DNA from: Candidatus Thorarchaeota archaeon
Lineage (GTDB): Archaea; Asgardarchaeota; Thorarchaeia; Thorarchaeales; Thorarchaeaceae
Reading direction: 5' to 3'
NCBI GenBank assembly: GCA_020348985.1
Contig: CP070761.1
Coordinates: 830,324 to 894,323, forward strand
Length of the DNA: 64,000 bases
In this document: in pieces, positions 14,879-28,627 of the stretch
Layout: every line of letters starts with the position of its first letter
How positions within the stretch are numbered: the stretch's first letter is position 1
The notes under the pieces: model-generated
The model's input: only the letters and a program-made list of their open reading frames with translations
The model's database searches: none
Told to the model about the DNA's origin: nothing
Program-made: the position numbers and the translations under genes

Positions 14879-17740
14879 TCAAACTTCGGCAGGAGTGTCC
14901 GTTCCATCCTCATCTGACCACTGATCGAACAATAGATAGTATGGAACAAGTATCGCAGGCAAGCAAGCGACCAAGACTACTAGCCAATCACTCAATGCAA
15001 GTGGCACTGTGCTGAATGCGAAACTCAACGGACTGTAGAATGTCAGAAGCGTTAACAGAAACGAGAACACAATAGCGGCCATAACATACTTGGCCTCTCT
15101 GATCTCAGTCTTCCAGATGGGTCTGTGCTCATCTCTGCAGCTGAAAACGAACAACAATTCGAAGAGTATGAGGCCTGCAAAGGACATGGATCTAGCATAG
15201 AGTAGCGTATCTGTCCATTGACCAGCATACCAGTTGACAGCGGGACCAGTAATGCCTGGTATCCAGCCTGGTGTGGAGACCCAAATAGCCCACAAGAATA
15301 GCAGTCCAGATGATAGGAACGCAAAAATCCCTCCGACGATAATCATCCTAAACATGCCTCTGTCCAACATTCGCTGCCCAGGTTTTCGCCCCTTGTGGTC
15401 CATCAGTCCCTTCTCTGCAGGGTCTACACCTAGTGCTAAAGCCGGAAATCCGTCTGTTACGAGATTCAACCAAAGTATCTGAACTGGTATTAGCGGAATC
15501 GGGAGACCTAGCATCACCATAATGAAGACGAGCAGTACCTCTCCTGCATTTGCTGAAAGAAGGTATCTCACGAATTTCCGGATATTGGCATAGATCTCGC
15601 GGCCGACCTCAACTGCCGTCACAATTGTGGCAAAGTTGTCGTCAGCCAAGATGACGTCCGATGCTTCTTTCGTGACGTCTGCACCACGGATACCCATTGA
15701 GACTCCCACGTCAGCGGACTTGATTGCCGGCGCATCGTTCACGCCGTCACCAGTCATGGCCACTATATGATCCTGCTCTTTCAGAGCCTTCACAATACGG
15801 AGCTTATGTTCTGGCGCAACTCTTGCGAAGACATCAACATCTCTACTAACTCGAGCGAGCTCCTGATCTGTCATTTCCTCAAGCTGCGAGCCCGAAATGA
15901 CGACTGCATCTCTATCAATCAGTCCTACGCTTCTTGCGACAGCACGAGCAGTCAATGCATGGTCGCCTGTGATCATAAGAGGCCGTATTCCTGCCTTTCG
16001 TGCAGTAATGACGGCTCCACGGACCTCCTCTCTTGGGGGATCCAGCATCCCGCAGAGGCCAACGAAAATCAGGTCCTTCTCTACTTTTGTGGGATCGAGT
16101 GGCTCTGCAATGTCCCTCCTTGAGATCTTCCTGTAGGCGAAAGCCAACACTCTCATCGCCTGCCCAGCAAGGTCGGTGTTGATTTTCAGGATCTGTTCCT
16201 TGGATTCATCGTCGAGGTCAATCTCATCTCCACTCACATAGTTCTGTGTGCACCTTTCCAGAATCACTTCAGGTGCACCTTTGACGAAGGCCCACAATTG
16301 TCCGTCAAGATCCTCAACAACCATCGTCATTCGTTTTCTCTTCGAATCGAATGATATCTCAATAACTTCATCGTATTTCTGCATAGCATCTTCGTGCGGA
16401 AGACAGGCCTTCTCAGCAGCGATGAGGATGGCACCCTCGGTTGGGTCTCCGACTATTGAGAAATCGTTACCCGTTTCCAAGTCTGGTTGTAAGACAGTGT
16501 TTGCACACATTTGTCCAATCTCAAAAAGTCTGACAAGATGTGGGTCAAACTGTGGCTGATACCGTAGGTCCGCGTGTGGAAACCTATCATCATATGGAAA
16601 TGCATCCACACCAAGCACAAATTCTCCGGTTCGATTGTATCCAGTGCCCGTGACTGTTATGTTAGTCCGATTGACATAGACAGCGCGGACTGTCATCTCG
16701 TTCTTTGTGATGGTGCCAGTCTTATCTGACGCTATCACCGTAGTAGAACCAAGTGTCTCCACTGATGGAAGACGACGAACGATTGCGTTCCGTCTGACCA
16801 TTCTCTGAACACCAATCGCTAACGTTATCGTGACTACTGCGGGGAGACCTTCGGGAATTGCAGCCACAGCAAGTGCAATGGCAACAAGGAACGATTCGAG
16901 CAAGGCCTGCTCAGGTATCATTATTACTTGTGCAGCGAAAACAATCGCACAAAGTGCCAGAATCATTAGGCCAACTTTCTTTCCCATGTCTTCAAGGTCG
17001 ACCTGGAGAGGAGTCATCTCCTTCTCGCTCTCTTGAACAAGCTGAGCGATTTTTCCAAACTGAGTCTTCATGCCAGTAGCAGTAATGACTGCGGATCCTT
17101 TTCCGGCAGTTATTACTGAACCTTGGAAGACCATATTCCGCATGTCACCAACTACTGGGCCTTCTAGCTGAAGTGGCTCGTTGGTCTTCCGCGCAGCCAC
17201 GGATTCTCCGGTGAGCACAGCTTCATCTGATGAAAGTCCGACTGCTTGGAAAATCCGACCGTCCGCAGGAACCTTCACGCCAGATTCGAAGAAAACTACA
17301 TCGCCCGGAACGACATCTCTGGATTCAACTTCGACCCAGCGTCCGTCTCTCTTGACTCTAGCTCGTGGGGCAGCAAGTTTCTTGAGAGCTTCTAGCGCCT
17401 TCTCAGATTTGTACTCCTGATAGAAGCCAAAAACTGCATTGAATACAACAATGACAGAAATGACTATGGCGTCGACAAATCCTTCCTCTCCGTGTGCATC
17501 ACCTATGAGACTCATAGCAACAGAGATCAGAATTGCAAAGAGCAGAATGATTACAAGCGGGTCCATGAATTGCTGAAGAAACATCTGAAGCGGGCCGGTT
17601 CTCTTCGCCTCAACTAGTTCATTTGGTCCGTAAACTTCTAGTCTTCTCTCCGCCTCCGCCTGTTTTAATCCGTCAACGGAAGAGTCTAGTCTTTCTAGAG
17701 TTGTTTCTGCGTCGATCAAATACCAGTCGTCTTCGGACAC
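14879..17740 (-). CDS. P-type (IIA-like, Ca2+) cation-transporting ATPase
   Basis: TGES, IPEGL, DKTGT, KGAPE, DPPR, TGDGVNDAP, NLVTD. Confidence 0.95.
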   Translation of the reverse strand: MSEDDWYLIDAETTLERLDSSVDGLKQAEAERRLEVYGPNELVEAKRTGPLQMFLQQFMDPLVIILLFAILISVAMSLIGDAHGEEGFVDAIVISVIVVFNAVFGFYQEYKSEKALEALKKLAAPRARVKRDGRWVEVESRDVVPGDVVFFESGVKVPADGRIFQAVGLSSDEAVLTGESVAARKTNEPLQLEGPVVGDMRNMVFQGSVITAGKGSAVITATGMKTQFGKIAQLVQESEKEMTPLQVDLEDMGKKVGLMILALCAIVFAAQVIMIPEQALLESFLVAIALAVAAIPEGLPAVVTITLAIGVQRMVRRNAIVRRLPSVETLGSTTVIASDKTGTITKNEMTVRAVYVNRTNITVTGTGYNRTGEFVLGVDAFPYDDRFPHADLRYQPQFDPHLVRLFEIGQMCANTVLQPDLETGNDFSIVGDPTEGAILIAAEKACLPHEDAMQKYDEVIEISFDSKRKRMTMVVEDLDGQLWAFVKGAPEVILERCTQNYVSGDEIDLDDESKEQILKINTDLAGQAMRVLAFAYRKISRRDIAEPLDPTKVEKDLIFVGLCGMLDPPREEVRGAVITARKAGIRPLMITGDHALTARAVARSVGLIDRDAVVISGSQLEEMTDQELARVSRDVDVFARVAPEHKLRIVKALKEQDHIVAMTGDGVNDAPAIKSADVGVSMGIRGADVTKEASDVILADDNFATIVTAVEVGREIYANIRKFVRYLLSANAGEVLLVFIMVMLGLPIPLIPVQILWLNLVTDGFPALALGVDPAEKGLMDHKGRKPGQRMLDRGMFRMIIVGGIFAFLSSGLLFLWAIWVSTPGWIPGITGPAVNWYAGQWTDTLLYARSMSFAGLILFELLFVFSCRDEHRPIWKTEIREAKYVMAAIVFSFLLTLLTFYSPLSFAFSTVPLALSDWLVVLVACLPAILVPYYLLFDQWSDEDGTDTPAEV

Positions 17741-18001: not shown

Positions 18002-18634
18002 TTGCACGGGAAGACAGATCACAGGGCAGATGTTGGCGAAATACTAAGCCAGGCTTCATGCTTTATCAAGGAATCTCAGTATGACAGAGCGATTAAGGAA
18101 CTGGAGAGAGGCCTAGCCATTGAGCCCGATAACAGGATCTTCTGGGAGGGCGTTGTGGTCTGTAATCTGGGTATGAAGAAGCCCGAGAAGGCGATAGAAG
18201 CTCTCAACCATATCCTCAGGATTGATCCACTGGCAGGACAGATCTGGGGTGACAAAGGCTACCTGCATCTTCTTCTGAATGAGAAGACCGAGGGAATTCA
18301 AGCACTAAAGGAGAGTCTCCGCATAAATCCAAGAAACCCACGCGATTGGCAACTACTTGCAGGCGCCTATGTCTCTGAGGACGAGTGGGAGCTTGCGTTA
18401 GACTGCTATGAGCGGTCTCTTTACCTCGATCCGAACTCGTCTACATCTTGGTACAACTCTGCGGTATGCTACTTCATGCTTGGCGACTATGAAGCTGCAC
18501 TGGTTGCAGTAGAGAATTCGATATCCATAGACCCTTCGCTTGAGTACTTGGCTTCAGAGTGGATTGATATTCTAAGAGATGACATGATAGCACCAGATCT
18601 TGTGACCTACAGTTACGATGAGCCGGCAAGCTAG
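18002..18634 (+). CDS. Tetratricopeptide repeat protein
   Basis: About five TPR units (A..L.P.N...W periodicity). Confidence 0.85.
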   Translation: MHGKTDHRADVGEILSQASCFIKESQYDRAIKELERGLAIEPDNRIFWEGVVVCNLGMKKPEKAIEALNHILRIDPLAGQIWGDKGYLHLLLNEKTEGIQALKESLRINPRNPRDWQLLAGAYVSEDEWELALDCYERSLYLDPNSSTSWYNSAVCYFMLGDYEAALVAVENSISIDPSLEYLASEWIDILRDDMIAPDLVTYSYDEPAS

Positions 18635-18659: not shown

Positions 18660-20594
18660 CTACTTCTCTTCAACAGCGTCCGAATCGTCACCCTCATCTT
18701 CTTCGGGCTCCAGACTGTCCTTCAACAATGCATTCAATTCATTTGTCAAGTCTCGAGTCTGTGACTTCAACTTGAACCGTGTTGCAGTATTGAGTGCCTG
18801 CTGTATAGCTTCAACCAGTCTATCCAATTCTGCCTTCTGTTCGGCACCTTCGGTCATAGAGAAAATTTCCGCCTTTCTTTTTGCCATCACACCCAATAGA
18901 CCTTCAATGGCGGCCAAGGCCTCCTCACGGCTTGTGAAATCCGCCTCAACTTTGTCGTCAGAGGCCTCGATGATTCTTGATATCTGCCCGAAGAGCCCTC
19001 GATATTCATCAAGAGAGGATGACAGAATACCTTCAACTTCACTGTCATCGTCTGCTTCTTTCAACCGTTCTTCTATTTCAACCATGGCCCGCTCGAGGAA
19101 GCCTCTCCGCTCTTCTAGACTCGTCCGTCTCCTCTCCATCCATCGCCACTCACTCCCGATGCTGTGAGTCAAAGCAAGGGCCTGATTTACTTTCTCTTGA
19201 AATTTGCCCAGTTTGGCCTTGGCATCTTCAAGATCTGCTTCCAATCCGTCTGCAATGTGTGAGAGCTGGTAGCTCAGTATATTGTCTGCTTGAGCCTCGG
19301 CAAGGACTCGAGCTTCTTTGAGGGCACGCGCTGCTGCAGTCCACAATGCCTTCACTTCATCATCTGCAGCGGCGGTTCGGCCTTTCATGTCGAGTTCATC
19401 CGAAAGCTGCTCTACTTCTTCACTGAGCTTCTTAATCTCTCCAATCTTGGATCTCAAGAGAGCTCTTCCCAGCCTTGTGTTAAGTTCGGTTGTCAGCCGC
19501 TGACGTTCATCCGGCACTTCCATCAGAGCATGTGTATTGTCAATTAGGAGCTGAAGCGCATTCTCAAACTCTGTGACCGACTCTGGATATTGCGACTGCT
19601 GAAAGAGCTCATCTCCTCGCGCCTGCAGAATCAGTACTTCTTCGAGAACGTCGTACGGCGACGTTCTAAGTAGAGTGGCGCCATAGCCAGAGACTTCCTC
19701 AGCCATTAGGTCGTGTGGACGGTCGTCAAGCATCACTCTGATGATTATTATTCCATCTGAACTTGCAGCGTACACGTACTCGCGGTCAGCAATCGCCCAT
19801 TCAAACTTCACGCCGTTGATCCTGAGCTGACCAACTTCAGTTCCTCGAGTCAAGTCCCATATAGTAAGATAGGATTGAGCAGAAGCAACAACAAGGTATG
19901 GGTATGTAGACCAAATCGATGCTACGGGCACAGATTCCGTGGGAACAAGCGTGTTAACGAGTTTCCATTCTACGCGGTCCCAGATTTTGATTTCACCAGT
20001 GCCCGTACCAATGATTATGTACTCGTTATTTCCTGATGCAACGACGCCTTTCTCCTTGTCTAGTTGCGCAATCTCAGTGGGCGCAGATGTTGTTGCATGT
20101 TTCCATACCACAGGTGCCTCCTTCTTGGCGGAGGTGCAGATCACCTCATCATCTGACCATAGCGTCGTTAAATCGGCCTTGTGCAGCTGCCAACTTGAAG
20201 TCTCATGGGTGTCCTTCTTTATCGACACCAGACGACCTTCGCTAGCCCCAACATAGAAGCGATCACCTTGTAGTGTTGATGTGATGGCCTGATAGGAGAG
20301 TTCAAACCATCCAATCATTCCAAACTCGCCTTTTCTCCAAACGTAGACACGTTTCTCACATGTGGCAAAGACTTGCTCCTCGTCAACATGAACTGCGCTT
20401 GGAGGTGAACTTGTCTCTCCGAGGACAGCAACGGGTTCCCAGTCACTTTTTGAGAAGACCCGTACTCTCCGGTCTCTGCAAGCAGCGTACAGATAGTGCT
20501 CATCGTACGTCAGATGAACGGCGTCAGCCTCCAGGGTGGTCACTATATCTGGTCTAAGAGGTAGCGTTTCATCTCCGGATGCTTGACCAGACAT
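18660..20594 (-). CDS. WD40/beta-propeller + MIT/TPR-like helical bundle + coiled-coil protein
   Basis: N-half WD-like blades (VRVF, VYVW, EIKIWD, LTIWD); central three-helix motif QYPESVTEFENALQLL...RLGRA; helical C-half; acidic tail. Confidence 0.75.
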   Translation of the reverse strand: MSGQASGDETLPLRPDIVTTLEADAVHLTYDEHYLYAACRDRRVRVFSKSDWEPVAVLGETSSPPSAVHVDEEQVFATCEKRVYVWRKGEFGMIGWFELSYQAITSTLQGDRFYVGASEGRLVSIKKDTHETSSWQLHKADLTTLWSDDEVICTSAKKEAPVVWKHATTSAPTEIAQLDKEKGVVASGNNEYIIIGTGTGEIKIWDRVEWKLVNTLVPTESVPVASIWSTYPYLVVASAQSYLTIWDLTRGTEVGQLRINGVKFEWAIADREYVYAASSDGIIIIRVMLDDRPHDLMAEEVSGYGATLLRTSPYDVLEEVLILQARGDELFQQSQYPESVTEFENALQLLIDNTHALMEVPDERQRLTTELNTRLGRALLRSKIGEIKKLSEEVEQLSDELDMKGRTAAADDEVKALWTAAARALKEARVLAEAQADNILSYQLSHIADGLEADLEDAKAKLGKFQEKVNQALALTHSIGSEWRWMERRRTSLEERRGFLERAMVEIEERLKEADDDSEVEGILSSSLDEYRGLFGQISRIIEASDDKVEADFTSREEALAAIEGLLGVMAKRKAEIFSMTEGAEQKAELDRLVEAIQQALNTATRFKLKSQTRDLTNELNALLKDSLEPEEDEGDDSDAVEEK

Positions 20595-20767
20595 GACATC
20601 ATCCCCAGCGCATGGCCATTAGTTCAGAGAAGACGCGTGATGAGGCCTTAAGTCAGTTTCTACGCACCGAAAAATGACACTTTAGAACCATGTTTGAACG
20701 CAGGAATTAGTACCCGCAGAGCTAAATTATGAATGAATATACTAGCTGGTAATAAGTCAGAACAGAG

Positions 20768-20810
20768 TTTAATAGAGGCCCGTTAGATGTCCCATTGCTC
20801 ATTAAGGAGG
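20768..20810 (+). promoter_or_regulatory. Putative TATA box (TTTAATAG) and GGAGG SD of the tubulin-like operon
   Basis: TTTAATAG at 20768-20775; AGGAGG at 20805-20810, 8 nt before an in-frame TTG at 20819. Confidence 0.5.
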
Positions 20811-20818
20811 ATGGTTAT

Positions 20819-23518
20819 TTGACATCAGCTCAAGAATGGAGAAGAAGACTGGATAAGCTCTCAGGATTGAAGGACCATCTTACATCGATAAACCCAGGTC
20901 TCGAAGAACAAGCAGACAGGGTCCTTCGAGGTCTCTATGATATTTACGCTAAGATATCAAAACTAGATAGCGAGCTAGGCAGCACTTCAGGAGTGAGCGT
21001 CCTGAAGAAGAGAAAGATTCAGAGCAGCATAGAATCAGGTCTAGGTGAGCTCGAGAACGAGTTTATGAAGGCGGTTCGTGACCTAGGCGACCTAATGCGA
21101 AAAGAACAGAAGGCGGTTCTTGAAGTACTACCTCAACTACAGAAGATCAAAGAGAAAGAGGCCAAGGCTCTTGTTGGAATCAAGTTTCCGTCAATAGCAG
21201 CAGGAGACATGAAAGATTTCGAGGCGCTTCTGTCCTATGGAGAAGACTTCTCGAAGAGCTACACAGGGCTTCATCAAAGCCTGTCCAGAGAGGTTCAGGA
21301 CAAACTGGATGAAAACAAGAGGACTTTGGAGACATATGAGCGCCATGTGACCATTGACCGAAGCAAAGTGACAACAACTGCGTCCGTGGAGAATGTCATG
21401 GGCTCAACCATTCCCGAGTTGATCACAGTATTCGACAAGTTGAAGTCTGAGACAGAGTTCTTGGACGGCCGCAAAGACGAAGTCAGAAGGATGATTGGAG
21501 TATCACTCATTTCCGAAGTTGAGTCCCTCGAAGCTTCAAGCGACACTGCAGCTAGATTTGGACTCGAATTGCCAATGGACTTCTCAAAGCAACTCAGGAC
21601 CCTGGCTCGCGATGCGGCCAGTGCAACAGATCTAACGACTCTAGTAAGCCTTGAGAATCAGCTGCAGACTTCAATCCTCAAACTGGCAAATATGTTGAGA
21701 GACAGAATCATCAATATCAAACACGAGGTAACCACGAAGATAGTAGAGGGAGGAATCCCAACATCTTCAGATGTTATACCTGAGGCACCACATCTGGCTT
21801 CAGACGAGGAGGATATTGCTAATCTCCTTGCGGCCTACCAGAGAATGGTCGAATGGAGTGGACAAGTCCAGGTTGGACTAAAAGACACGATAGAAGAGGT
21901 GCTTGAGGATATCGAGAGAGCCACAGAACATCCAGAGGATGCTGGAATAAAGGATATTGTTTCAGTGAGGGAGTTCCTTGCTGAAGCTAGAAAGACCCTG
22001 AAGAAAAGCGAAGTCGATGACATGATCAAGACATATCTTCGCGCAAAATCGATGCAGGAAGAGCAAAAGAAGAACATCACTGACAAGATTAGGGCGTACC
22101 TGGCCAGGTTCAACGAGCTGGCAACGTCAGCAGATAGAGTCCTGGACTACGCCCAGCTTTCGAAGAAGGCTCCTAAAGTTGAGGAGCTCGAGGGAGGCAT
22201 CGTCCACCTACTCCAGTCTCTGACGAGTCTGAAGGAAGCTGTTGAAAGTGGAGTAGCGACCTTCAGAGATGCTTGTCAACAAGAGATTGATGCAATTATC
22301 GAGGACCTACAGACGATAAAGCCGGTCTATGCAGAGATTTTCATGCCAATCGTTGTGGACCTTGAGGAGGGCTCGGGCCGGATTGCTAAGATGGACGAAT
22401 TCGCTGAGTTGCGGTCTGAAATGCGCTCGATAAAGGACTCCATACTCGTGAAGGCGAAGGAGGCGCTGGAGAACCTGCGCTATAGACTTGGGGTCAAGAT
22501 AAGATTGGCCGCAGCTAAACTGATGGGCGCAGGCGTGGAAATACCAAAGGAAGTGCAAGAGGCAATCAGCGAACTCAACAATGTAGGAGTGGCAGCTGAG
22601 AATGTCTTCAGCCTGCCTGCAATTGCACGAAAGATGATAGAACTCTACGAGAAGAACATCACTGACAAAGTGATAGGTGCCCTTATTGGAGAAGCACAAG
22701 CGCTTGTGAAATCCTTTGAGCAGGCTACAACCATTGGTGTTGATCTTTCGAAGGAAATGAAGACGCTTCAGAAGATAGTCAGCGATCCACCAGATGAGCT
22801 TGAGGAAGCTGCTGATGCCTTTGACAAAATGAGAGGGCTAACAACCTCCGATGCAGTACAAAAGAAGATCAAAGAACGTGCCAATGAAGCGAACTCTCAG
22901 CTTGAAGAAGCAATCTCGATATTTGAAGCACAAGGTCTCTCTGACTTCGTTTCTCGTTTGCGCAGTCTTCTTGAGAAGGTGCCAGAGCAGCTCGAGAGGG
23001 GCACTACACATGTGAACGAAGCACTTGAGGTTTGCCTAACGTTGGCAACCGTCCAGCAAGAAATGCTTGGCGTGATAAAGGACATCGCCAAGAAGGACGG
23101 AGAGGAACATTCGAAGGATCTCAAGGAAAAGAGTCAACGCTACTCTACTATTGAGAAGGTCTTTGAGAAGCACCCTGATGACTTCAGCAAGATAATCTAC
23201 CCCGTCTCGAGAATCCGGGAGCTAGAAGGACTTCTGGAAGAGGCAGATATGCTCGACCAAGCAATGACATACTTCAACGAGCTGAAGAAGCTTAGAACCG
23301 GTTGGATTGACAAGGCCGAGAAGATGGATGATTGGCACAAAACACTCAGGATGTACTTGACAGGATTTTCACCTGCTGCAAGCGCGGATGACCGTGATAA
23401 ATTCATTGAGGATGCCATCAAAAAGATAAAAGAAACGTTCAGCAAAGAGGACATAAGCACATACCTCTCATGGGCTATCAGAGTCCTTGCTGAAACAATG
23501 GTAGAATCACGCACTTAG
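20819..23518 (+). CDS. Large all-alpha/coiled-coil protein (~900 aa), function unknown
   Basis: E/K/L/A-rich heptad-like composition; no TM and no P-loop seen. Start moved from 20795 to 20819 on the basis of the SD. Confidence 0.8.
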   Translation: MTSAQEWRRRLDKLSGLKDHLTSINPGLEEQADRVLRGLYDIYAKISKLDSELGSTSGVSVLKKRKIQSSIESGLGELENEFMKAVRDLGDLMRKEQKAVLEVLPQLQKIKEKEAKALVGIKFPSIAAGDMKDFEALLSYGEDFSKSYTGLHQSLSREVQDKLDENKRTLETYERHVTIDRSKVTTTASVENVMGSTIPELITVFDKLKSETEFLDGRKDEVRRMIGVSLISEVESLEASSDTAARFGLELPMDFSKQLRTLARDAASATDLTTLVSLENQLQTSILKLANMLRDRIINIKHEVTTKIVEGGIPTSSDVIPEAPHLASDEEDIANLLAAYQRMVEWSGQVQVGLKDTIEEVLEDIERATEHPEDAGIKDIVSVREFLAEARKTLKKSEVDDMIKTYLRAKSMQEEQKKNITDKIRAYLARFNELATSADRVLDYAQLSKKAPKVEELEGGIVHLLQSLTSLKEAVESGVATFRDACQQEIDAIIEDLQTIKPVYAEIFMPIVVDLEEGSGRIAKMDEFAELRSEMRSIKDSILVKAKEALENLRYRLGVKIRLAAAKLMGAGVEIPKEVQEAISELNNVGVAAENVFSLPAIARKMIELYEKNITDKVIGALIGEAQALVKSFEQATTIGVDLSKEMKTLQKIVSDPPDELEEAADAFDKMRGLTTSDAVQKKIKERANEANSQLEEAISIFEAQGLSDFVSRLRSLLEKVPEQLERGTTHVNEALEVCLTLATVQQEMLGVIKDIAKKDGEEHSKDLKEKSQRYSTIEKVFEKHPDDFSKIIYPVSRIRELEGLLEEADMLDQAMTYFNELKKLRTGWIDKAEKMDDWHKTLRMYLTGFSPAASADDRDKFIEDAIKKIKETFSKEDISTYLSWAIRVLAETMVESRT

Positions 23519-23536
23519 ACATGGAGGCAAGAAGAA

Positions 23537-24922
23537 ATGCAGATAGCTGGCTCAAAAGTAGCTGAAGACGAAACGACAAAGGCGGCAGAAGTCTTTGCCA
23601 TCGGAGTGGGCGAATGCGGCTCGAACATCGTGGGATCCTATCTCAAAACAAGCGCAGACAAGAGATTGCCATCGCGTGTTCGCGGATACCTCCTCATGAA
23701 CACCGATAGAGCAGACCTGACAAAGGTGCGCTCAAAGTACGAGATACCGAAGGAAAACACCATGCTCTATGGTGATAGCGAGATTGGTGTTGGTGGCCGG
23801 TTCATGGATGGCTACAACTCCGTCATGGAGTCAAAGGACATCATCTTCGATCAATTGGCCAACCTAGGATTTGAAGGAGTATCAGGATTCTCAATCTTTA
23901 CAAGTCTTGGTGGAGGAACTGGCTGTGGCGGGACACCGGCACTCATTGAATTGCTGAAACAGAGATTCCAGGAAGAGGAAGGCAGAAGGATATTTGTCTA
24001 TGTGATTGGAATCCTGCCTTTCGAGGGCCAATCAAGTGAAGCTCTCAACTCCATATGGGCTGTGTCCAGACTTCTTCGGGCCCAGCTTCAGGAAAGAGGG
24101 GCCGACCTGACTATTCTCCTGTCCAATAGGACCATGCTGAAGAGAATTCTGACTTCTAGAAGAGGCGAGAGCGTGGACTACCTTCAGAGGGAACTCTCAG
24201 TGGACATTGCCGACGTAGATTCTATTCAGACAATGGTACCATCGACTATCGATGAGGGTGGTGAGGCAGAGCTGAGGACTGAGCAAGCGTTTGTCGAGCT
24301 CGTCAATCCACTGGCACTAGAAGTAGTTGAGTCGATGCTATCACCAGGCGTGTATGAGGGCAGCAAGGATGTCTTCCCAACAACGGACCTTGCAGACTAT
24401 GCAAGGAAACTGGACCCGGTTGTTGTTCCTGCACTCTACACGGATGTGGGTTTAATCCCCGACGCTGGCAGTATGCCCAAGCAAATTCGGGCCATGATTG
24501 ACTACGCAGTGAGAGAGTGCTCTTATGCTGATGTCGGAGACCAACCAAATGCTGAAAGTGTCTACTATGTCCTAAGTGGACCTAGAAACATCTCGAAAGC
24601 AGAACATGGGATGCACCTGAAAGAAGCACTTGACAAGTTCATTGCCCCAGGTGCGGCGATAACACCCTGCTATGTACAATACCACACTCCTGAGAGTCCG
24701 ACCAATCTTCTGGTCTTGCTTGGTCTTCCGAAGATTCCTGAGCTGGCTCAGATTATCAACGAAGCCACTCAGCTGGTTAATCTTCACAGCGGAGCGTCCC
24801 CGCTAAAGCAGGGATGGTTTATGAGATCGAAGGGAGTTCCTCGTAAGGAACTTGTGAGTGCCATTGCGGACTTTCGTGAGTTGTTCAGCTACTACATGCA
24901 GCCTTCTGGAGCACAGGAGTAA
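23537..24922 (+). CDS. Divergent tubulin/FtsZ-superfamily GTPase with tubulin-like C-terminal helices
   Basis: T1 GVGECGSNI, T2 NTDRADL, T3 GVGG, signature SLGGGTGCGG, T5 GILPFEG, T7 TTDLAD; C-terminal W..GVPRKELVSAIADFRELFSYY. Confidence 0.92.
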   Translation: MQIAGSKVAEDETTKAAEVFAIGVGECGSNIVGSYLKTSADKRLPSRVRGYLLMNTDRADLTKVRSKYEIPKENTMLYGDSEIGVGGRFMDGYNSVMESKDIIFDQLANLGFEGVSGFSIFTSLGGGTGCGGTPALIELLKQRFQEEEGRRIFVYVIGILPFEGQSSEALNSIWAVSRLLRAQLQERGADLTILLSNRTMLKRILTSRRGESVDYLQRELSVDIADVDSIQTMVPSTIDEGGEAELRTEQAFVELVNPLALEVVESMLSPGVYEGSKDVFPTTDLADYARKLDPVVVPALYTDVGLIPDAGSMPKQIRAMIDYAVRECSYADVGDQPNAESVYYVLSGPRNISKAEHGMHLKEALDKFIAPGAAITPCYVQYHTPESPTNLLVLLGLPKIPELAQIINEATQLVNLHSGASPLKQGWFMRSKGVPRKELVSAIADFRELFSYYMQPSGAQE

Positions 24923-24939
24923 ACCTGGAGGATTGTCCC

Positions 24940-25998
24940 TTGTCTGAATCGATTAATCTCGAAGAGCTCGTGGACAGACTTCTTCTAATTGCTACACTAA
25001 ACTCAACCCTCGTCCATTTCCTCCTGAGCTCGCAGATTGAGGGAAGTGTGGACCCTGACCGGGTTGACTCTCTGACTCAAGGCCTCATGCGAACCAGGAA
25101 ATGGATGGAAGAAGCAACATTGGCAAGCGATGTCCCCGCATCCACAGCCAACATTATGAGTCTAATCGTGAAGCGATTATCTCAGATCGAAAGCCTGCTG
25201 CCCAAGCTCTCAGAGAGAGCAAAGAAGGCCGAGGCTGCCGGCACACCAGCACAGGAGATTCTGTCCATCCTTGAGGGCGATACAACCAATGTGAGACCTG
25301 TGCAATCAGTGGTTGAGTCCACAACAGGAGAAGCAGTCGTTCCGCTTGTGGAGACTGCTCCACCTCCTCCTGTTGAGCCCTACAAGAAGGTAGACGTGGA
25401 GGATGACGAGTTTGGTCTTATTGGCCAGACAGAAAGAATGATTCAACAGTATTCCAATCGATGTCACATCTTGTTGCCGCTCTTCTGGCTAGAGGTTGTG
25501 CGTGAGCTTCACAAATACACGTCAAATTCACCATTTGTGGGAGATGTAATAGAAATCCCGGCAAGGATAGGAGTGCGTATCGCCAAGGGTCTTCTAACTG
25601 AAGCCCCAGGAGCGCGACTTCTTCAGGACTTGGTGAAGAAGCGCCCCGCAGAGAGCTCTCTTGATCCCAATGAGAGTGAACGAATCGAGAGAGCGGTTGC
25701 CAAATACTTCACGGGGGTCGAAGGGATTCTCAAGGGTGACTCACCCAATCCGAATGACAAACTTGGAGAAGCCCAAACTGCGCTTGACGGTTTTGACTGG
25801 GGCGGGCCTGAGCTGGAAAAGAGGATCATCAAGAGAATCAATCAGCAGGTTCAGGAGTCACTTCAGAACGCAGAGTCAGGAACGGATCCACAGCGTCAGG
25901 TGATTCATGCGGAAGTCACGAAGCTTCTATGCAAGCTTCAAGCAGCAATACTTGCTGAACCCCGATTTAGAGAGATTCTAGCTCAGATGAAGCCTTGA
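24940..25998 (+). CDS. Hypothetical helical protein, third gene of the tubulin-like operon
   Basis: GGAGG SD before TTG, 17 bp after the tubulin-like stop; two helical regions joined by a Pro-rich linker. Confidence 0.75.
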   Translation: MSESINLEELVDRLLLIATLNSTLVHFLLSSQIEGSVDPDRVDSLTQGLMRTRKWMEEATLASDVPASTANIMSLIVKRLSQIESLLPKLSERAKKAEAAGTPAQEILSILEGDTTNVRPVQSVVESTTGEAVVPLVETAPPPPVEPYKKVDVEDDEFGLIGQTERMIQQYSNRCHILLPLFWLEVVRELHKYTSNSPFVGDVIEIPARIGVRIAKGLLTEAPGARLLQDLVKKRPAESSLDPNESERIERAVAKYFTGVEGILKGDSPNPNDKLGEAQTALDGFDWGGPELEKRIIKRINQQVQESLQNAESGTDPQRQVIHAEVTKLLCKLQAAILAEPRFREILAQMKP

Positions 25999-26080: not shown

Positions 26081-27487
26081 ATGTCCGGTCTCAAGAAGAT
26101 GCTGAATCCGAGTTCCACAGCAGTTGTCGGTGTCTCCACCTCGAACCCGTTTTCGCCGGGGAATGTGATTTTCCGCAAACTATGCTTCGAGAACGATCTA
26201 ACGACGTATGCTATCAATCCAAAAGGCGGGACAGTCGAAGGGCAGAAAGTCTACAAGTCAATCCCAGAAGCCCCAGGCGACATCGATCTCGTCGTCATCG
26301 CAGTGCCATCAAGGTTCGTTCCGCAGATACTGGAGCAATGTGGAGAAAAGGGTGTCAAGGCAGTCATAGTGGTATCAGGCGGATTTGGGGAAACTGGAGA
26401 ATCTGGGCAGAGCCTTCAGACAGAAATTGTAGAGATTGCTAACTCTCATGGAATCACGATGGTTGGACCAAACTGCATAGGTGTCTTCGTACCGGACACT
26501 GTCGATACTTTCTTTCTTCCTAGCGAACGTGTTGCTCGTCCCAGACGTGGCAATGTAGCAATAGTGTCACAGAGTGGCGGATGGCTTGTTGAGCGCTTGG
26601 AGGAGTTCGCTGAAAGAGATGTGGGAATCGCTGCTGCCATCTCAATTGGGAACTCTGCACAGACCGACGTGACTGACTTCGTGCAATACTTCGGAGATGC
26701 TCCCAAAGTAGATGTCATATTGGCATACATTGAGGGATTTCGAGAGCTTGAAGGACGTAGATTCGTTGAGACGGTTCATTCTGTGGCTCGAAAGAAGCCT
26801 GTTGTTGTTCTCAAGGGTGGCGAATCTGAGGCGGGTCATCGAGCCACACAGAGTCACACTTCATCTCTTGCCGGAGATATGGCTGTAGCTGATGCCGCGT
26901 TTCGGCAGTACGGCGTCCTAAGGGCAGTTGATGAAGATGAGGTCATGGCCTACTCGAAGGTGTTCTCTTTTGGTCTTAGATACATGCATGGTCCCAAGGT
27001 TGGGGTGATGACCGTCAGCGGGGGTCATGGTGTGATTGCTTCGGATGAAGCGTCTTATTACGGTCTTGAGTTCCCTCCCTTCTCGGAAGAGCAACAGCAA
27101 GCTATGCGGGGAGTGATGACCCCGGCCTACCAAGGAATAGCGTCCTTCAGAAACCCATGTGATCTGACTGGTAGTGCTTCGGACATTGACTACGAAAGAG
27201 TGCTTGACAAGATGCTAGAGTTTGACACTATCGATGCCGCGTTGCTGCTCCTGCTTCCCTATGCCCCGGGGATATCGTTACAGATAGGAGCGAGAATCTC
27301 GAATGTAGTGAAGCGTCACAATAAGACAGTAGTAACCTATGTACCCAATCTGGACAAGTATGAAGTGATCATTAGAGGATTTGAGCTGAATGGAATCCCT
27401 GTCGCAGACACAATCGAAGAAGCAGTTCAGATGCTGAATGGAATCAGGAAGCACTGCATGTTTCTTGACAGAGAGGGGGCTAAATAG
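26081..27487 (+). CDS. acdA: NDP-forming acyl-CoA synthetase alpha subunit
   Basis: CoA-binding domain, GPNCIG, SQSGG, SIGN, SHTSSLAG (phospho-His), NPCDLTG. Confidence 0.88.
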   Translation: MSGLKKMLNPSSTAVVGVSTSNPFSPGNVIFRKLCFENDLTTYAINPKGGTVEGQKVYKSIPEAPGDIDLVVIAVPSRFVPQILEQCGEKGVKAVIVVSGGFGETGESGQSLQTEIVEIANSHGITMVGPNCIGVFVPDTVDTFFLPSERVARPRRGNVAIVSQSGGWLVERLEEFAERDVGIAAAISIGNSAQTDVTDFVQYFGDAPKVDVILAYIEGFRELEGRRFVETVHSVARKKPVVVLKGGESEAGHRATQSHTSSLAGDMAVADAAFRQYGVLRAVDEDEVMAYSKVFSFGLRYMHGPKVGVMTVSGGHGVIASDEASYYGLEFPPFSEEQQQAMRGVMTPAYQGIASFRNPCDLTGSASDIDYERVLDKMLEFDTIDAALLLLLPYAPGISLQIGARISNVVKRHNKTVVTYVPNLDKYEVIIRGFELNGIPVADTIEEAVQMLNGIRKHCMFLDREGAK

Positions 27488-27496
27488 TCCAGGGTG

Positions 27497-28627
27497 TCAT
27501 GCGCCTTGAGTGATCTGCAGCAAGTCTATGTCAAGTGACTTCAGTGATTCTGCAAGTTCCCCGGTGATAACTAGAGGCTTCTCTGCAAGGTCTTCGACCT
27601 TCTGAGACCCTGTCAAATACATGGCAACTTTGAGGCCCTCTATCATCCGTTCTATCTCAAGTACTACGTCCAATGATGAGCCTTGAGCAGCAGGACGTAG
27701 CACCGGAAGTGCGATTCCAGCAGCCATCGCTCCCAAGCTTAGCGACTTGGCGACGTCCAACCCTGTCCGTATTCCCCCGGTTGCTATTACCGACAAATTG
27801 GTTGCATCGCTTACCATTATGATGCTAAGTGCTGTGGGGATGCCCCAGTCCCAGAATTCAATGCCCAGCTGCGCCTTTGTGTCGTCATCTTCGCGAACCG
27901 CTCTGAAGTATTCTACTGCAGACCAGCTTGTACCCCCGACACCACCAACGTCTACGCCAGACACTCCGATGCTCTCAAGCCTCACTGCGGCATCTCCTGA
28001 GATACCAGCTCCGGTTTCTTTGACAATGACCGGAATGTCAACCGATTCAACAACTGATGCAATGTTGTCTAGGACTCCTGTAGAGTCACAATCTCCTTCC
28101 GGCTGAATTGCTTCCTGGAGCGGATTCAGATGAATTGCCAATATATCCGCATCAATCATCTCAATGGCGGCTGAGGCAGCATCAACATGAGTTGCCCCGA
28201 CATTTGCTATAACCGGCACGCTGGGAGCGAAATCTCGTACAACCCGAAAAGTTTCTACGAGTGATTCGTCCTCCACCGCAGCACGTTGACTTCCCACGCC
28301 AATTGGAATTCCTAATTCTTCCGCGGCTTCTGCCAGTCGTTTGTTGATGTCAAGAGTGTCAGGATGACCTCCAGTCATTGCGGCAATCATGATCGGTGCA
28401 TCGGCACGCAGACCCAGGAAATTCACAGTGAGATCGATGGAGTCTTTGTCAATCTCCGGAAGAGCGTTATGAACCAGCTTGATGTCCTCTAGCATTGTGG
28501 AGATTCGGCTTTGGACATCTTCTTCCAAGCATATCTCAATATGTTCGATCTTTCTCCTTCGAGTCAGGGCCGCTTCATCGGAATCGTCTGTGCTTTCTGA
28601 GTCCGGAAGTGATTCGCCTCGTGTCAA
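27497..28627 (-). CDS. fni: Type 2 isopentenyl-diphosphate delta-isomerase
   Basis: RRKIEH, AMTGG, GVGSQR, HLNPLQE, KETGAG, GGTSW, GGIRTGLD. Confidence 0.95.
   Translation of the reverse strand: MTRGESLPDSESTDDSDEAALTRRRKIEHIEICLEEDVQSRISTMLEDIKLVHNALPEIDKDSIDLTVNFLGLRADAPIMIAAMTGGHPDTLDINKRLAEAAEELGIPIGVGSQRAAVEDESLVETFRVVRDFAPSVPVIANVGATHVDAASAAIEMIDADILAIHLNPLQEAIQPEGDCDSTGVLDNIASVVESVDIPVIVKETGAGISGDAAVRLESIGVSGVDVGGVGGTSWSAVEYFRAVREDDDTKAQLGIEFWDWGIPTALSIIMVSDATNLSVIATGGIRTGLDVAKSLSLGAMAAGIALPVLRPAAQGSSLDVVLEIERMIEGLKVAMYLTGSQKVEDLAEKPLVITGELAESLKSLDIDLLQITQGA

What the first reader, a model, noticed from the sequence alone, without database searches (positions are those of the whole stretch)
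18660..20594. WD40 propeller fused to an MIT-like three-helix domain and coiled coil, divergent from the tubulin operon
The segment at ~19440-19655, DVLEEVLILQARGDELFQQSQYPESVTEFENALQLL...PDERQRLTTELNTRLGRA, follows the MIT pattern of Vps4 (QYEEAY..Y.NGL.YL...P....I......YL.RA, recalled from memory). A single TPR-like hairpin is the alternative reading. Known: MIT domains occur in Vps4, spastin and katanin p60; katanin p80 is WD40 + helical; propeller + alpha-helical fusions are also the protocoatomer architecture. Finding it facing a tubulin-like operon suggests a filament regulator or membrane-coat link (inference).
Basis: partly seen in the sequence, partly recalled or inferred. Interest (0 to 1): 0.72.

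Follow-up and report, generated by a model that had tools for sequence, protein, structure and literature searches.

The report
Thorarchaeal WD40 propeller with helical rod
A real, conserved 644-residue gene found only in one family of Asgard archaea encodes a seven-bladed WD40 propeller joined to a rod of three-helix bundles; it always sits head-to-head with an uncharacterised tubulin-like operon, but the proposed MIT domain reads better as a single TPR-like three-helix bundle and its function is still inferred.

Summary
The ORF at 18660-20594 (-) is real. More than 200 homologues share about 50% identity over the full length, and the AlphaFold2 model has pLDDT 87.

Architecture:
- a seven-bladed WD40 propeller (aa 13-289);
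- a flexible linker;
- an invariant SPYDVLE cap;
- about four consecutive three-helix bundles (aa 312-627);
- an acidic tail.

The "MIT-like" segment (aa 312-384) is the most conserved part of the helical region. It superposes on MIT domains (Z about 10, rmsd 1.6-2.0 Å), but equally well on designed three-helix bundles and TPR caps. Pfam MIT does not detect it. Profile searches recover TPR repeats, while MIT chains score only E 0.2-0.6. The rest of the rod has no homologue among 1.84 billion representative proteins.

The family is confined to Thorarchaeaceae (33 of 43 sampled genomes). In all 28 same-contig cases it lies divergently upstream of a triad made of a 900-aa helical protein, a CetZ-like tubulin GTPase and a 350-aa protein.

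The triad occurs in at least nine Asgard families, eight of them without this gene. Some Thorarchaeaceae genera have the triad but not the gene. The conserved block also carries metabolic genes.

The gene is most likely an accessory scaffold or adaptor of the tubulin-like module. This is an inference.

The parts
18660..20594 (-). Whole gene (P0001, 644 aa): WD40 propeller plus helical rod. The family is specific to Thorarchaeaceae.
   Evidence: ORF. More than 200 full-length homologues at about 50% identity. AF2 pLDDT 86.7.
19728..20558 (-). Seven-bladed WD40 beta-propeller, aa 13-289. Blades 2-4 are the most conserved.
   Evidence: 28 strands by DSSP. Foldseek matches beta-TrCP and WDR5 at E about 1e-16. 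About 15 Pfam propeller families hit below threshold. Conservation is 0.78-0.81 in blades 2-4 and 0.52-0.66 in the other blades.
19662..19727 (-). Variable, low-confidence linker, aa 290-311.
   Evidence: pLDDT <50 at aa 303-309. Conservation 0.51.
19443..19661 (-). First three-helix bundle, aa 312-384. It has an invariant SPYDVLE N-cap, one TPR-like motif (aa about 324-359) and a conserved LIDNTHALxEVPEER loop.
   Evidence: Helices 313-332, 336-352 and 361-404. Highest conservation of the helical region, 0.75. TPR_11 E 0.0013 and TPR_2 E 0.0047. Consensus TPR chains at E 4e-7 to 1e-4, MIT chains at E 0.2-0.6. Superposes on MIT domains, designed bundles and TPR caps at Z 9.3-10.5.
18714..19442 (-). 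Three further three-helix bundles forming a rod, aa 385-627. Neighbouring bundles share long continuous helices (361-404, 439-488).
   Evidence: AF2 rod model, pLDDT 89.4. Spectrin- and plakin-repeat alignments, e.g. 5j1h Z 10.7 with 156 residues aligned. No homologue outside the family in 1.84 billion representatives.
18663..18713 (-). Disordered acidic C-terminal tail, aa 628-644.
   Evidence: pLDDT <50. Conservation 0.16.
20595..20821 (.). Divergent intergenic region. A CTTAAG motif lies on the P0001 side. On the P0002 side, CAGAACAGAG-TTTAATAGA is followed by GGAGG and a TTG.
   Evidence: Alignment of 13 intergenic regions. Sequence.
20795..23518 (+). P0002: about 900-aa all-helical protein, first gene of the conserved triad. 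Its true start is probably the TTG at 20822.
   Evidence: No Pfam family. Homologues sit upstream of the GTPase in all 20 loci examined that cover that side, across nine Asgard families. Start inferred from the conserved SD and TTG.
23537..24922 (+). P0003: divergent tubulin/FtsZ-superfamily GTPase, CetZ-like. It is the third superfamily member in this genome, besides two canonical FtsZ genes.
   Evidence: Pfam Tubulin 1.6e-18. Best PDB chains are 4b46 (2.9e-9) and 3zid. Three PF00091 loci in the genome. 75-91% identity within Thorarchaeaceae and 43-62% in other Asgard families.
24940..25998 (+). P0004: 352-aa two-domain helical protein with a variable linker, third gene of the triad.
   Evidence: No Pfam or PDB match. 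Homologues follow the GTPase in 18 of 20 loci.
18002..18634 (+). P0006: 210-aa canonical TPR protein, convergent with P0001. In genomes that lack P0001 it sits directly upstream of P0002.
   Evidence: TPR_1 1.9e-27. Loci L004-L006 and L008. Present in 13 of 13 loci.

Best explanation
P0001 is a lineage-specific (Thorarchaeaceae) scaffold or adaptor protein. Shown: an N-terminal seven-bladed WD40 propeller is tethered by a flexible linker to a rod about 330 residues long, built of four successive three-helix bundles. The first bundle carries one TPR-like motif and an invariant SPYDVLE cap and is, with propeller blades 2-4, the most conserved part. Inferred: these two conserved surfaces each bind a partner, so the protein bridges two things. 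One of them is most likely a component of the neighbouring module: the P0002 helical protein, the P0003 CetZ-like tubulin GTPase or the P0004 protein. It would then act as a dispensable accessory factor that localises, bundles or links the filaments, in the way that WD40-plus-helical adaptors such as katanin p80 or NEDD1 serve eukaryotic tubulin systems (comparison from general knowledge). It is not a core part of the module.
For: Structure:
- AF2 models have pLDDT 86.7 (full length) and 89.4 (rod).
- Propeller matches reach E about 1e-16.
- Spectrin-repeat-like and three-helix-bundle superpositions appear.
- Conservation peaks in blades 2-4 and in bundle 1.

Linkage:
- The family is present in 33 of 43 sampled Thorarchaeaceae genomes.
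- Wherever it shares a contig with the GTPase (28 genomes including this one), the two matches lie 2.9-3.5 kb apart in divergent orientation. The one exception is 5.2 kb, where a TBP gene is inserted.
- The block TPR-P0001-P0002-P0003-P0004 is kept in 13 of 13 loci from at least 10 genera, while the outer flanks vary.
- Each of the two divergent genes keeps its own conserved promoter-like motif.

Precedent: haloarchaeal 'Halo_adaptin' loci combine a CetZ-like gene with propeller-bearing proteins (PMC10936438). Asgard CetZ-like 'Asg.Tub' genes were reported to have coiled-coil neighbours (PMC9871819).
Against: - No physical or expression evidence was obtained.
- The triad occurs without any P0001 relative in eight other Asgard families, in Thorarchaeaceae genera g3 and g9, and in genome G103. 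In those Thorarchaeaceae genomes the TPR gene abuts P0002 directly. The gene is therefore dispensable for the module.
- The equally conserved block also holds a CoA-ligase-like gene and an FMN-dehydrogenase-like gene with no evident cytoskeletal role. Conserved order within one family may therefore be inherited rather than selected.
- No motif in P0003 or P0004 co-varies with the presence of P0001.
Confidence: 0.45

Rival explanations
1. Unrelated neighbour. P0001 is a generic WD40/TPR-type protein-interaction scaffold working in some other process. Its position next to the tubulin-like operon would be inherited gene order within a single archaeal family.
For: - The conserved block also includes metabolic genes.
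- P0001 has been cleanly lost or is absent in g3, g9 and G103 with the triad intact.
- The triad is widespread without it.
- There is no co-varying motif in the triad proteins.
Against: The divergent arrangement and spacing are kept in 28 of 28 same-contig cases, across genera whose P0001 proteins share only 43-56% identity, while the outer flanks have rearranged.
Confidence: 0.35
2. First reader's reading. Residues 312-384 are a true MIT domain that docks a MIM-like motif, either in an ESCRT-III protein or in the proline/acidic linker of P0004. This would couple the tubulin-like filament to membrane remodelling.
For: - Structural superposition on MIT domains: 2w2u_B Z 10.3, rmsd 1.9 Å, 72 of 74 residues; 5lb7_B katanin p60N Z 9.7, rmsd 1.6 Å; also 2v6x, 4a5x and 2rkk.
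- hhalign against 29 Asgard Vps4 MIT domains aligns helices 1-2 in register, with P 7e-4 and probability 26%.
- MIT chains appear at E 0.2-0.6 in the profile search.
Against: - Pfam MIT gives no hit at E<=10. Whole-genome scans with it find only Vps4 in seven Thorarchaeaceae genomes.
- Designed bundles and TPR caps score as well as MIT domains.
- The third helix runs on for 44 residues into the next bundle.
- Profile searches recover TPR repeats, not MIT proteins.
- The genome's Vps4/ESCRT-III locus is about 2.1 Mb away.
- The P0004 linker motif is equally conserved in genomes lacking P0001.
Confidence: 0.12
3. Protocoatomer-like membrane-coat protein (beta-propeller followed by alpha-solenoid), ancestral to or analogous with COPI, clathrin or nucleoporin scaffolds.
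For: The domain order is propeller then helical region. A COPI propeller is among the propeller matches (9qpq_F). A 2026 preprint reports Thorarchaeia-rich propeller+solenoid structural clusters (10.64898/2026.10.28.762692); whether P0001 belongs to one is unknown.
Against: The helical part is only about 330 residues and models as three-helix bundles sharing long helices, not as stacked hairpins. Foldseek gives no coat or nucleoporin match (best E 0.011, TM <=0.24). None appears in the top 50 of the exhaustive structural search or in the Atlas searches.
Confidence: 0.05

Closest known systems
WD40-repeat scaffold proteins with C-terminal helical domains that serve tubulin systems (katanin p80, NEDD1; from general knowledge)
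   Same: N-terminal seven-bladed WD40 propeller followed by a helical region, and genomic association with a tubulin-superfamily gene. The bundle 1 fold also superposes on the katanin p60 N-terminal MIT-like domain (5lb7_B, Z 9.7, rmsd 1.6 Å).
   Different: There is no sequence relationship. No Katanin_con80 or other family hit was found in the helical part. Partner binding is untested. Here the propeller and the three-helix bundle are in one chain.
MIT domains (Pfam PF04212: Vps4, spastin, MITD1, Vta1)
   Same: Antiparallel three-helix bundle of about 75 residues with a TPR-like first hairpin. Superposition is 1.6-2.7 Å over 64-80 residues.
   Different: The MIT profile does not detect it. 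The third helix continues into a further bundle. The similarity is no better than to designed bundles or TPR caps.
Tetratricopeptide repeat (TPR) proteins
   Same: aa 324-359 match the TPR consensus. Consensus TPR chains score E 4e-7 to 1e-4, natural STIP1 scores 1.7e-4, and the profile matches up to 22 repeats in TPR proteins.
   Different: There is only one recognisable motif. There is no tandem array or superhelix, and the Pfam scores are below threshold.
Spectrin/plakin repeats
   Same: Successive three-helix bundles are joined by continuous long helices to give a rod. Plectin SR5-6 aligns at Z 10.7 with 156 residues and rmsd 4.7 Å; alpha-spectrin R15-17 aligns over 229 residues.
   Different: No Spectrin Pfam hit. 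Z is in the range the tool calls non-discriminating for helical proteins. The bundle lengths differ.
Asgard 'Asg.Tub' CetZ-like loci (Santana-Molina et al. 2023, PMC9871819) and haloarchaeal Halo_adaptin ESCRT loci with a CetZ-like gene and propeller-bearing proteins (Makarova et al. 2024, PMC10936438)
   Same: A divergent CetZ-like GTPase is flanked by uncharacterised coiled-coil or helical proteins, and in the haloarchaeal case by beta-propeller proteins.
   Different: I could not verify that P0003 belongs to the published Asg.Tub clade. This locus has no Vps4, ESCRT-III or Ig-like adaptin-appendage genes. The WD40 gene was not described in those papers as far as I could read.

Membership tests
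MIT domain (PF04212) | Match to the MIT sequence profile | tested here: not met
   hmmscan of aa 300-410 at E<=10 gave no MIT hit. The PF04212 scan of the own genome at E<=1 hit five places, none of them in this gene. In seven Thorarchaeaceae genomes it hit only the Vps4-like ORFs.
MIT domain (PF04212) | Asymmetric antiparallel three-helix bundle of about 75 residues | tested here: met
   Model aa 311-384 aligns to 2w2u_B (72 of 74 residues, rmsd 1.9 Å, Z 10.3), 2v6x_A, 5lb7_B, 4a5x_B and 2rkk_A. Designed bundles (9mni, Z 9.9) and TPR caps score the same, so this feature does not discriminate.
MIT domain (PF04212) | Profile-profile similarity to bona fide (Asgard Vps4) MIT domains | tested here: inconclusive
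   hhalign of A2 against 29 Vps4 N-termini gave probability 26% and P 7e-4 over 34 columns covering helices 1-2 only. Against the neighbouring TPR protein the probability was 8.5%.
MIT domain (PF04212) | Binds a MIM motif of an ESCRT-III-type partner | not testable with these tools
   This needs a binding assay or a structure. No ESCRT-III or Vps4 gene is in the locus; the genome's Vps4 is at 2.97 Mb and this gene at 0.85 Mb.
TPR repeat | 34-residue helix-turn-helix matching the TPR consensus | tested here: met
   TPR_11 E 0.0013 and TPR_2 E 0.0047, both below the Pfam cut-off. The A2 profile hits consensus TPR chains at E 4e-7 to 1e-4 and STIP1 at 1.7e-4. The A3 profile matches 4-22 repeats per protein in TPR proteins.
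TPR repeat | Tandem array of three or more repeats forming a superhelix | tested here: not met
   Only profile positions about 19-55 ever match TPR repeats. The following helices are 44 and 50 residues long.
WD40 beta-propeller | Seven four-stranded blades closing a ring | tested here: met
   28 strands in aa 13-289. Foldseek to WDR5 gives TM by target 0.80 and rmsd 3.0 Å over 300 columns; beta-TrCP gives E 6e-17.
WD40 beta-propeller | Pfam WD40/propeller model above the curated cut-off | tested here: not met
   PF00400 scores 20.9 bits against a cut-off of 27. About 15 propeller families hit below their cut-offs. The repeats are divergent.
Protocoatomer (beta-propeller + alpha-solenoid) | C-terminal alpha-solenoid of stacked helical hairpins | tested here: inconclusive
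   The model shows three-helix bundles sharing long helices. No coat, nucleoporin or HOPS chain is listed, but only the top rows are shown.
Spectrin repeat (PF00435) | Consecutive three-helix bundles linked by a continuous helix, and a sequence-profile match | tested here: inconclusive
   Structural alignments to plectin and alpha-spectrin repeats give Z 9.2-10.7, which is a non-discriminating range. No Spectrin Pfam hit at E<=10.

The most novel reading that the evidence does not exclude
P0001 is an archaeal counterpart of eukaryotic WD40-plus-helical tubulin adaptors such as katanin p80 or NEDD1. Its conserved TPR/MIT-like first bundle would dock onto the Asgard CetZ-like filament module (P0002/P0003/P0004), and its propeller would recruit a second structure. 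Thorarchaeaceae would then have a regulated tubulin-family cytoskeleton with a dedicated accessory factor.
Probability: 0.15. Interest if true: 0.75.

Novelty: new variant of a known kind. Interest (0 to 1): 0.4.

Why it matters

The neighbouring three-gene module (helical protein, CetZ-like tubulin GTPase, small helical protein) is conserved across at least nine Asgard families and its GTPase shows 75-91% identity within Thorarchaeaceae. It is nevertheless experimentally uncharacterised.

A lineage-specific WD40-rod protein tied to it would be a candidate first accessory factor of a non-FtsZ tubulin-family system in Asgards, and a practical handle for pull-downs. If the link is only positional, the gene is simply one more uncharacterised WD40/TPR scaffold.

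The work also corrects the MIT annotation. The resemblance is a shared three-helix-bundle geometry, not family membership.

Tried and rejected
- Complex prediction of full-length P0001 with P0004 returned 'no answer' (score 0.00). This is neither support nor evidence against. The size limit prevented testing full-length P0001 with P0003 or P0002.
- The sequencing-run search listed no RNA holder, only sediment metagenome DNA. Expression was therefore not assessed and read laying was not used.
- Foldseek of the rod against PDB gave nothing below E 0.01, only TPR-like rows with TM <=0.24 and rmsd about 30 Å.
- ESM Atlas searches by features and by structure gave only sub-threshold TPR or generic WD40 leads. 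About 705-aa Campylobacterota WD40 clusters scored 0.90-0.91 by features and were not followed up.
- hhalign of the rod against P0002 and P0004 alignments gave no similarity (probability <1%). The rod is therefore not a duplicated piece of its neighbours.
- I looked for motifs in P0003 (C-tail, H6-H7 insertion) and in the P0004 linker that track the presence or absence of P0001, and found none.
- Distant propeller matches in other Asgard families (G112, G003, G086) are generic or double WD40 proteins. They are unlinked to the triad and lack the rod.
- PDB profile searches with P0004 and with the rod gave nothing significant beyond consensus TPR.
- I could not determine whether P0001 belongs to the Thorarchaeia WD40 or propeller+solenoid clusters of preprint 10.64898/2026.10.28.762692, because no supplement is held.
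Full report
**The gene.** An uninterrupted 644-codon ORF lies at 18660-20594 on the minus strand. A word-indexed search of 5.8 billion proteins returned 209 significant hits. The best 120 listed are essentially full-length at about 47-58% identity (one at 80%), and nearly all named ones are labelled Thorarchaeota or Promethearchaeota MAGs and annotated as 'hypothetical', 'WD40 repeat' or 'TPR repeat' proteins. The window lies in a single 3.16-Mb contig. A 40-sequence alignment (A1) has 56% mean column identity and many invariant residues. This is a real gene under purifying selection.

**Architecture.** AlphaFold2 on A1 gave mean pLDDT 86.7. It shows:
- 28 beta-strands in aa 13-289, i.e. seven four-stranded blades;
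- a low-confidence linker (aa 303-309, pLDDT <50);
- eleven helices: 313-332, 336-352, 356-359, 361-404, 411-434, 439-488, 493-513, 518-546, 556-578, 583-606 and 610-627;
- a disordered acidic tail.

Foldseek against PDB matched the propeller to beta-TrCP/FBXW11, Fbw7 and WDR5 at E 1e-17 to 1e-14, with TM by target up to 0.83. Pfam sees only sub-threshold propeller hits; PF00400 scores 20.9 bits against a cut-off of 27.

A separate model of aa 305-630 (A3) gave pLDDT 89.4 and pTM 0.63. Foldseek found no solved structure below E 0.01 for it. The exhaustive VIA search aligned longer spans to spectrin and plakin repeats:
- plectin SR5-6: Z 10.7, 156 residues, rmsd 4.7 Å;
- alpha-spectrin R15-17: 229 residues;
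- plectin SR7-8: 167 residues.

Together with the 44- and 50-residue helices that run from one bundle into the next, this indicates a rod of about four consecutive three-helix bundles rather than a two-stranded coiled coil. The tool warns that Z below about 13 does not discriminate for helical proteins. I therefore treat 'spectrin-like' as a description of geometry, not of ancestry.

**The MIT question.**

- The first bundle (model residues 7-80, protein aa 311-384) superposes on the Sulfolobus Vps4 MIT domain (2w2u_B, 72 of 74 residues, rmsd 1.9 Å, Z 10.3).
- It also superposes on yeast Vps4 MIT (2v6x_A, Z 9.9), katanin p60N (5lb7_B, rmsd 1.6 Å, Z 9.7), MITD1 (4a5x_B), Vta1 (2rkk_A) and calpain-7.
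- hhalign of the segment's alignment (A2) against 29 Asgard Vps4 N-termini, which I extracted from genomes, aligned helices 1-2 in register. Probability was only 26% and P was 7e-4.

- De novo three-helix bundles (9mni Z 9.9, rmsd 1.2 Å; 9jm8; 8xyv) and TPR caps (FKBP38, Cpr7, sNASP) score the same.
- The Pfam MIT model gives no hit to aa 300-410 even at E<=10.
- A six-frame scan of the whole genome with PF04212 at E<=1 hits five places, none in this gene. The best is a 409-aa Vps4-like ORF next to an ESCRT-III-like ORF at 2.97 Mb.
- In seven Thorarchaeaceae genomes the same model finds exactly one place each, the Vps4-like ORF.
- The A2 profile against all PDB sequences recovers consensus TPR proteins (E 4e-7 to 1e-4) and STIP1/Hop (1.7e-4). 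MIT chains appear only at E 0.2-0.6.
- The A3 profile against 1.84 billion representative proteins finds the family itself and its fragments. Beyond those, it finds only multi-repeat TPR proteins, in which profile positions about 19-55 (aa 324-359) match 4-22 repeats each.

Conclusion: the segment is a three-helix bundle whose first hairpin is a single TPR-like motif. MIT and TPR share that hairpin; Pfam MIT itself cross-hits a TPR protein (P0160). The resemblance is real at the level of geometry, but family membership is not supported. The rest of the rod (aa 385-627) has no detectable homologue anywhere.

**Conservation.** Per-region majority fractions:

| Region | Majority fraction |
|---|---|
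| Blades 2-4 | 0.78-0.81 |
| Blades 1 and 5-7 | 0.52-0.66 |
| Bundle 1 | 0.75 (12 invariant residues) |
| Bundles 2-3 | 0.63 |
| Bundle 4 | 0.55 |
| Linker | 0.51 |
| C-terminal tail | 0.16 |

The invariant residues of bundle 1 include S312-E318 (SPYDVLE), D352, L357 and P361. Two surfaces therefore look functionally constrained: one side of the propeller, and the TPR-like bundle.

**Neighbourhood.** Downstream, and divergent from P0001, lie three genes:
- P0002: 907 aa, all-helical, no Pfam family.
- P0003: 461 aa, Pfam Tubulin/FtsZ GTPase domain at 1.6e-18. Its best PDB chains are 4b46 and 3zid, which I recall as CetZ structures.
- P0004: 352 aa, with no family or PDB match.

The genome also has two canonical FtsZ-type genes elsewhere, so P0003 is a third, divergent superfamily member.

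Across 201 sampled Asgard genomes, P0003 relatives occur in 77:
- 40 of 43 Thorarchaeaceae at 75-91% identity;
- eight further families at 43-73%.

In all 20 loci I fetched that cover it, P0002 precedes the GTPase, and P0004 follows in 18 of 20. The conserved unit is thus a three-gene module. It probably corresponds to the 'Asg.Tub' CetZ-like group whose neighbours were described as coiled-coil proteins of unknown function (PMC9871819). I could not verify clade membership.

**Linkage of P0001.**
- P0001 relatives were found in 33 of 43 sampled Thorarchaeaceae genomes. In the other 158 Asgard genomes only generic propeller matches appeared.
- In 27 other genomes plus this one, the P0001 and P0003 matches share a contig. 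They are always divergent. The gap is 2.9-3.1 kb in 25 of them (the length of P0002), 3.5 kb in one, and 5.2 kb in one where a TATA-binding-protein gene is inserted.
- In the six remaining genomes the hits lie at contig ends or the GTPase was not found.
- In 13 loci from at least 10 genera, the following seven genes are all retained while the outer flanks vary: the TPR gene, P0001, P0002, P0003, P0004, a CoA-ligase-like gene and an FMN-dehydrogenase-like gene.
- Genera g3 and g9 and genome G103 have the TPR gene directly upstream of P0002, with no P0001 there. The rod profile finds nothing elsewhere in five such genomes, which are 88-99% complete.

P0001 is therefore a lineage-specific, dispensable insertion or loss within a conserved block. 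The inclusion of metabolic genes in that block means that conserved order alone is weaker evidence of shared function than it first appears.

**Intergenic region.** Aligning 13 intergenic regions shows two conserved elements:
- CAGAACAcAC-TTAAGA about 35 bp upstream of a GGAGG and a TTG. This places the likely P0002 start at 20822 rather than 20795.
- CTTAAG on the P0001 side.

These are consistent with separate promoters. This reading is an inference.

**Mechanism.** The shown facts are the fold, the two conserved surfaces, the restricted distribution and the fixed position. From these I infer a bridging scaffold. One conserved surface would bind a component of the tubulin-like module and the other a second partner, by analogy with katanin p80 and NEDD1 (general knowledge) and with propeller proteins in haloarchaeal CetZ-like loci (PMC10936438). 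I put this at about 0.45, and the unrelated-neighbour alternative at about 0.35. A true MIT-MIM coupling is at about 0.12 and a protocoatomer-like coat at about 0.05.

**Tests that gave no answer** are listed under Tried and rejected: complex prediction with P0004, RNA runs, Atlas searches, homology of the rod to its neighbours and motif co-variation.

**Verdict.** 'MIT-like' should be replaced by 'TPR-like three-helix bundle at the head of a spectrin-like rod'. The family is new but built of known domain types. Its tie to an uncharacterised Asgard tubulin-like module makes it a reasonable, though not compelling, experimental target.

Noticed in passing
window 20795-25998: The three-gene module P0002 (about 900-1180 aa helical), P0003 (CetZ-like tubulin GTPase) and P0004 (about 300-360 aa) is conserved in order and orientation in at least nine Asgard families. 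P0003 shows 43-91% identity. The module, rather than the WD40 gene, is the widely conserved feature.
   Followed up: partly
window 20795-20824: The listed TTG start of P0002 (20795) lies upstream of a conserved GGAGG. Alignment of 13 loci suggests that the real start is the in-frame TTG at 20822.
   Followed up: partly
window 26081-28627: A CoA-ligase-like gene (Succ_CoA_lig/CoA_binding, 468 aa) and a convergent FMN-dehydrogenase-like gene (376 aa) follow the triad in 13 of 13 Thorarchaeaceae loci. The CoA-ligase-like gene also follows it in a distant family (f16, 33% identity).
   Followed up: partly
L021 4553-5170 (genome G134): A 205-aa TATA-binding-protein gene is inserted between the P0001 and P0002 homologues. 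This is the only locus in which the divergent pair is separated.
   Followed up: no
L024 (G000:C1:2970440-2973616): The genome's only MIT-profile hit is a 409-aa ORF, presumed to be the Vps4 homologue from its MIT-profile hit and size only. It lies next to a 206-aa ESCRT-III-like helical ORF, about 2.1 Mb from this locus.
   Followed up: no
window 14879-17740: A 953-aa P-type ATPase gene sits between the TPR gene and the upstream amino-acid-kinase and RidA-like genes. It has no counterpart in any of the 13 syntenic loci, so it is probably a local insertion in this genome.
   Followed up: no
L014/L015 (genome G139), and G136, G184: Some genomes of one Asgard family (f22) carry two copies of the P0002-P0003 pair, at 50-58% identity to P0003. 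P0002 there is expanded to about 1140-1185 aa.
   Followed up: no
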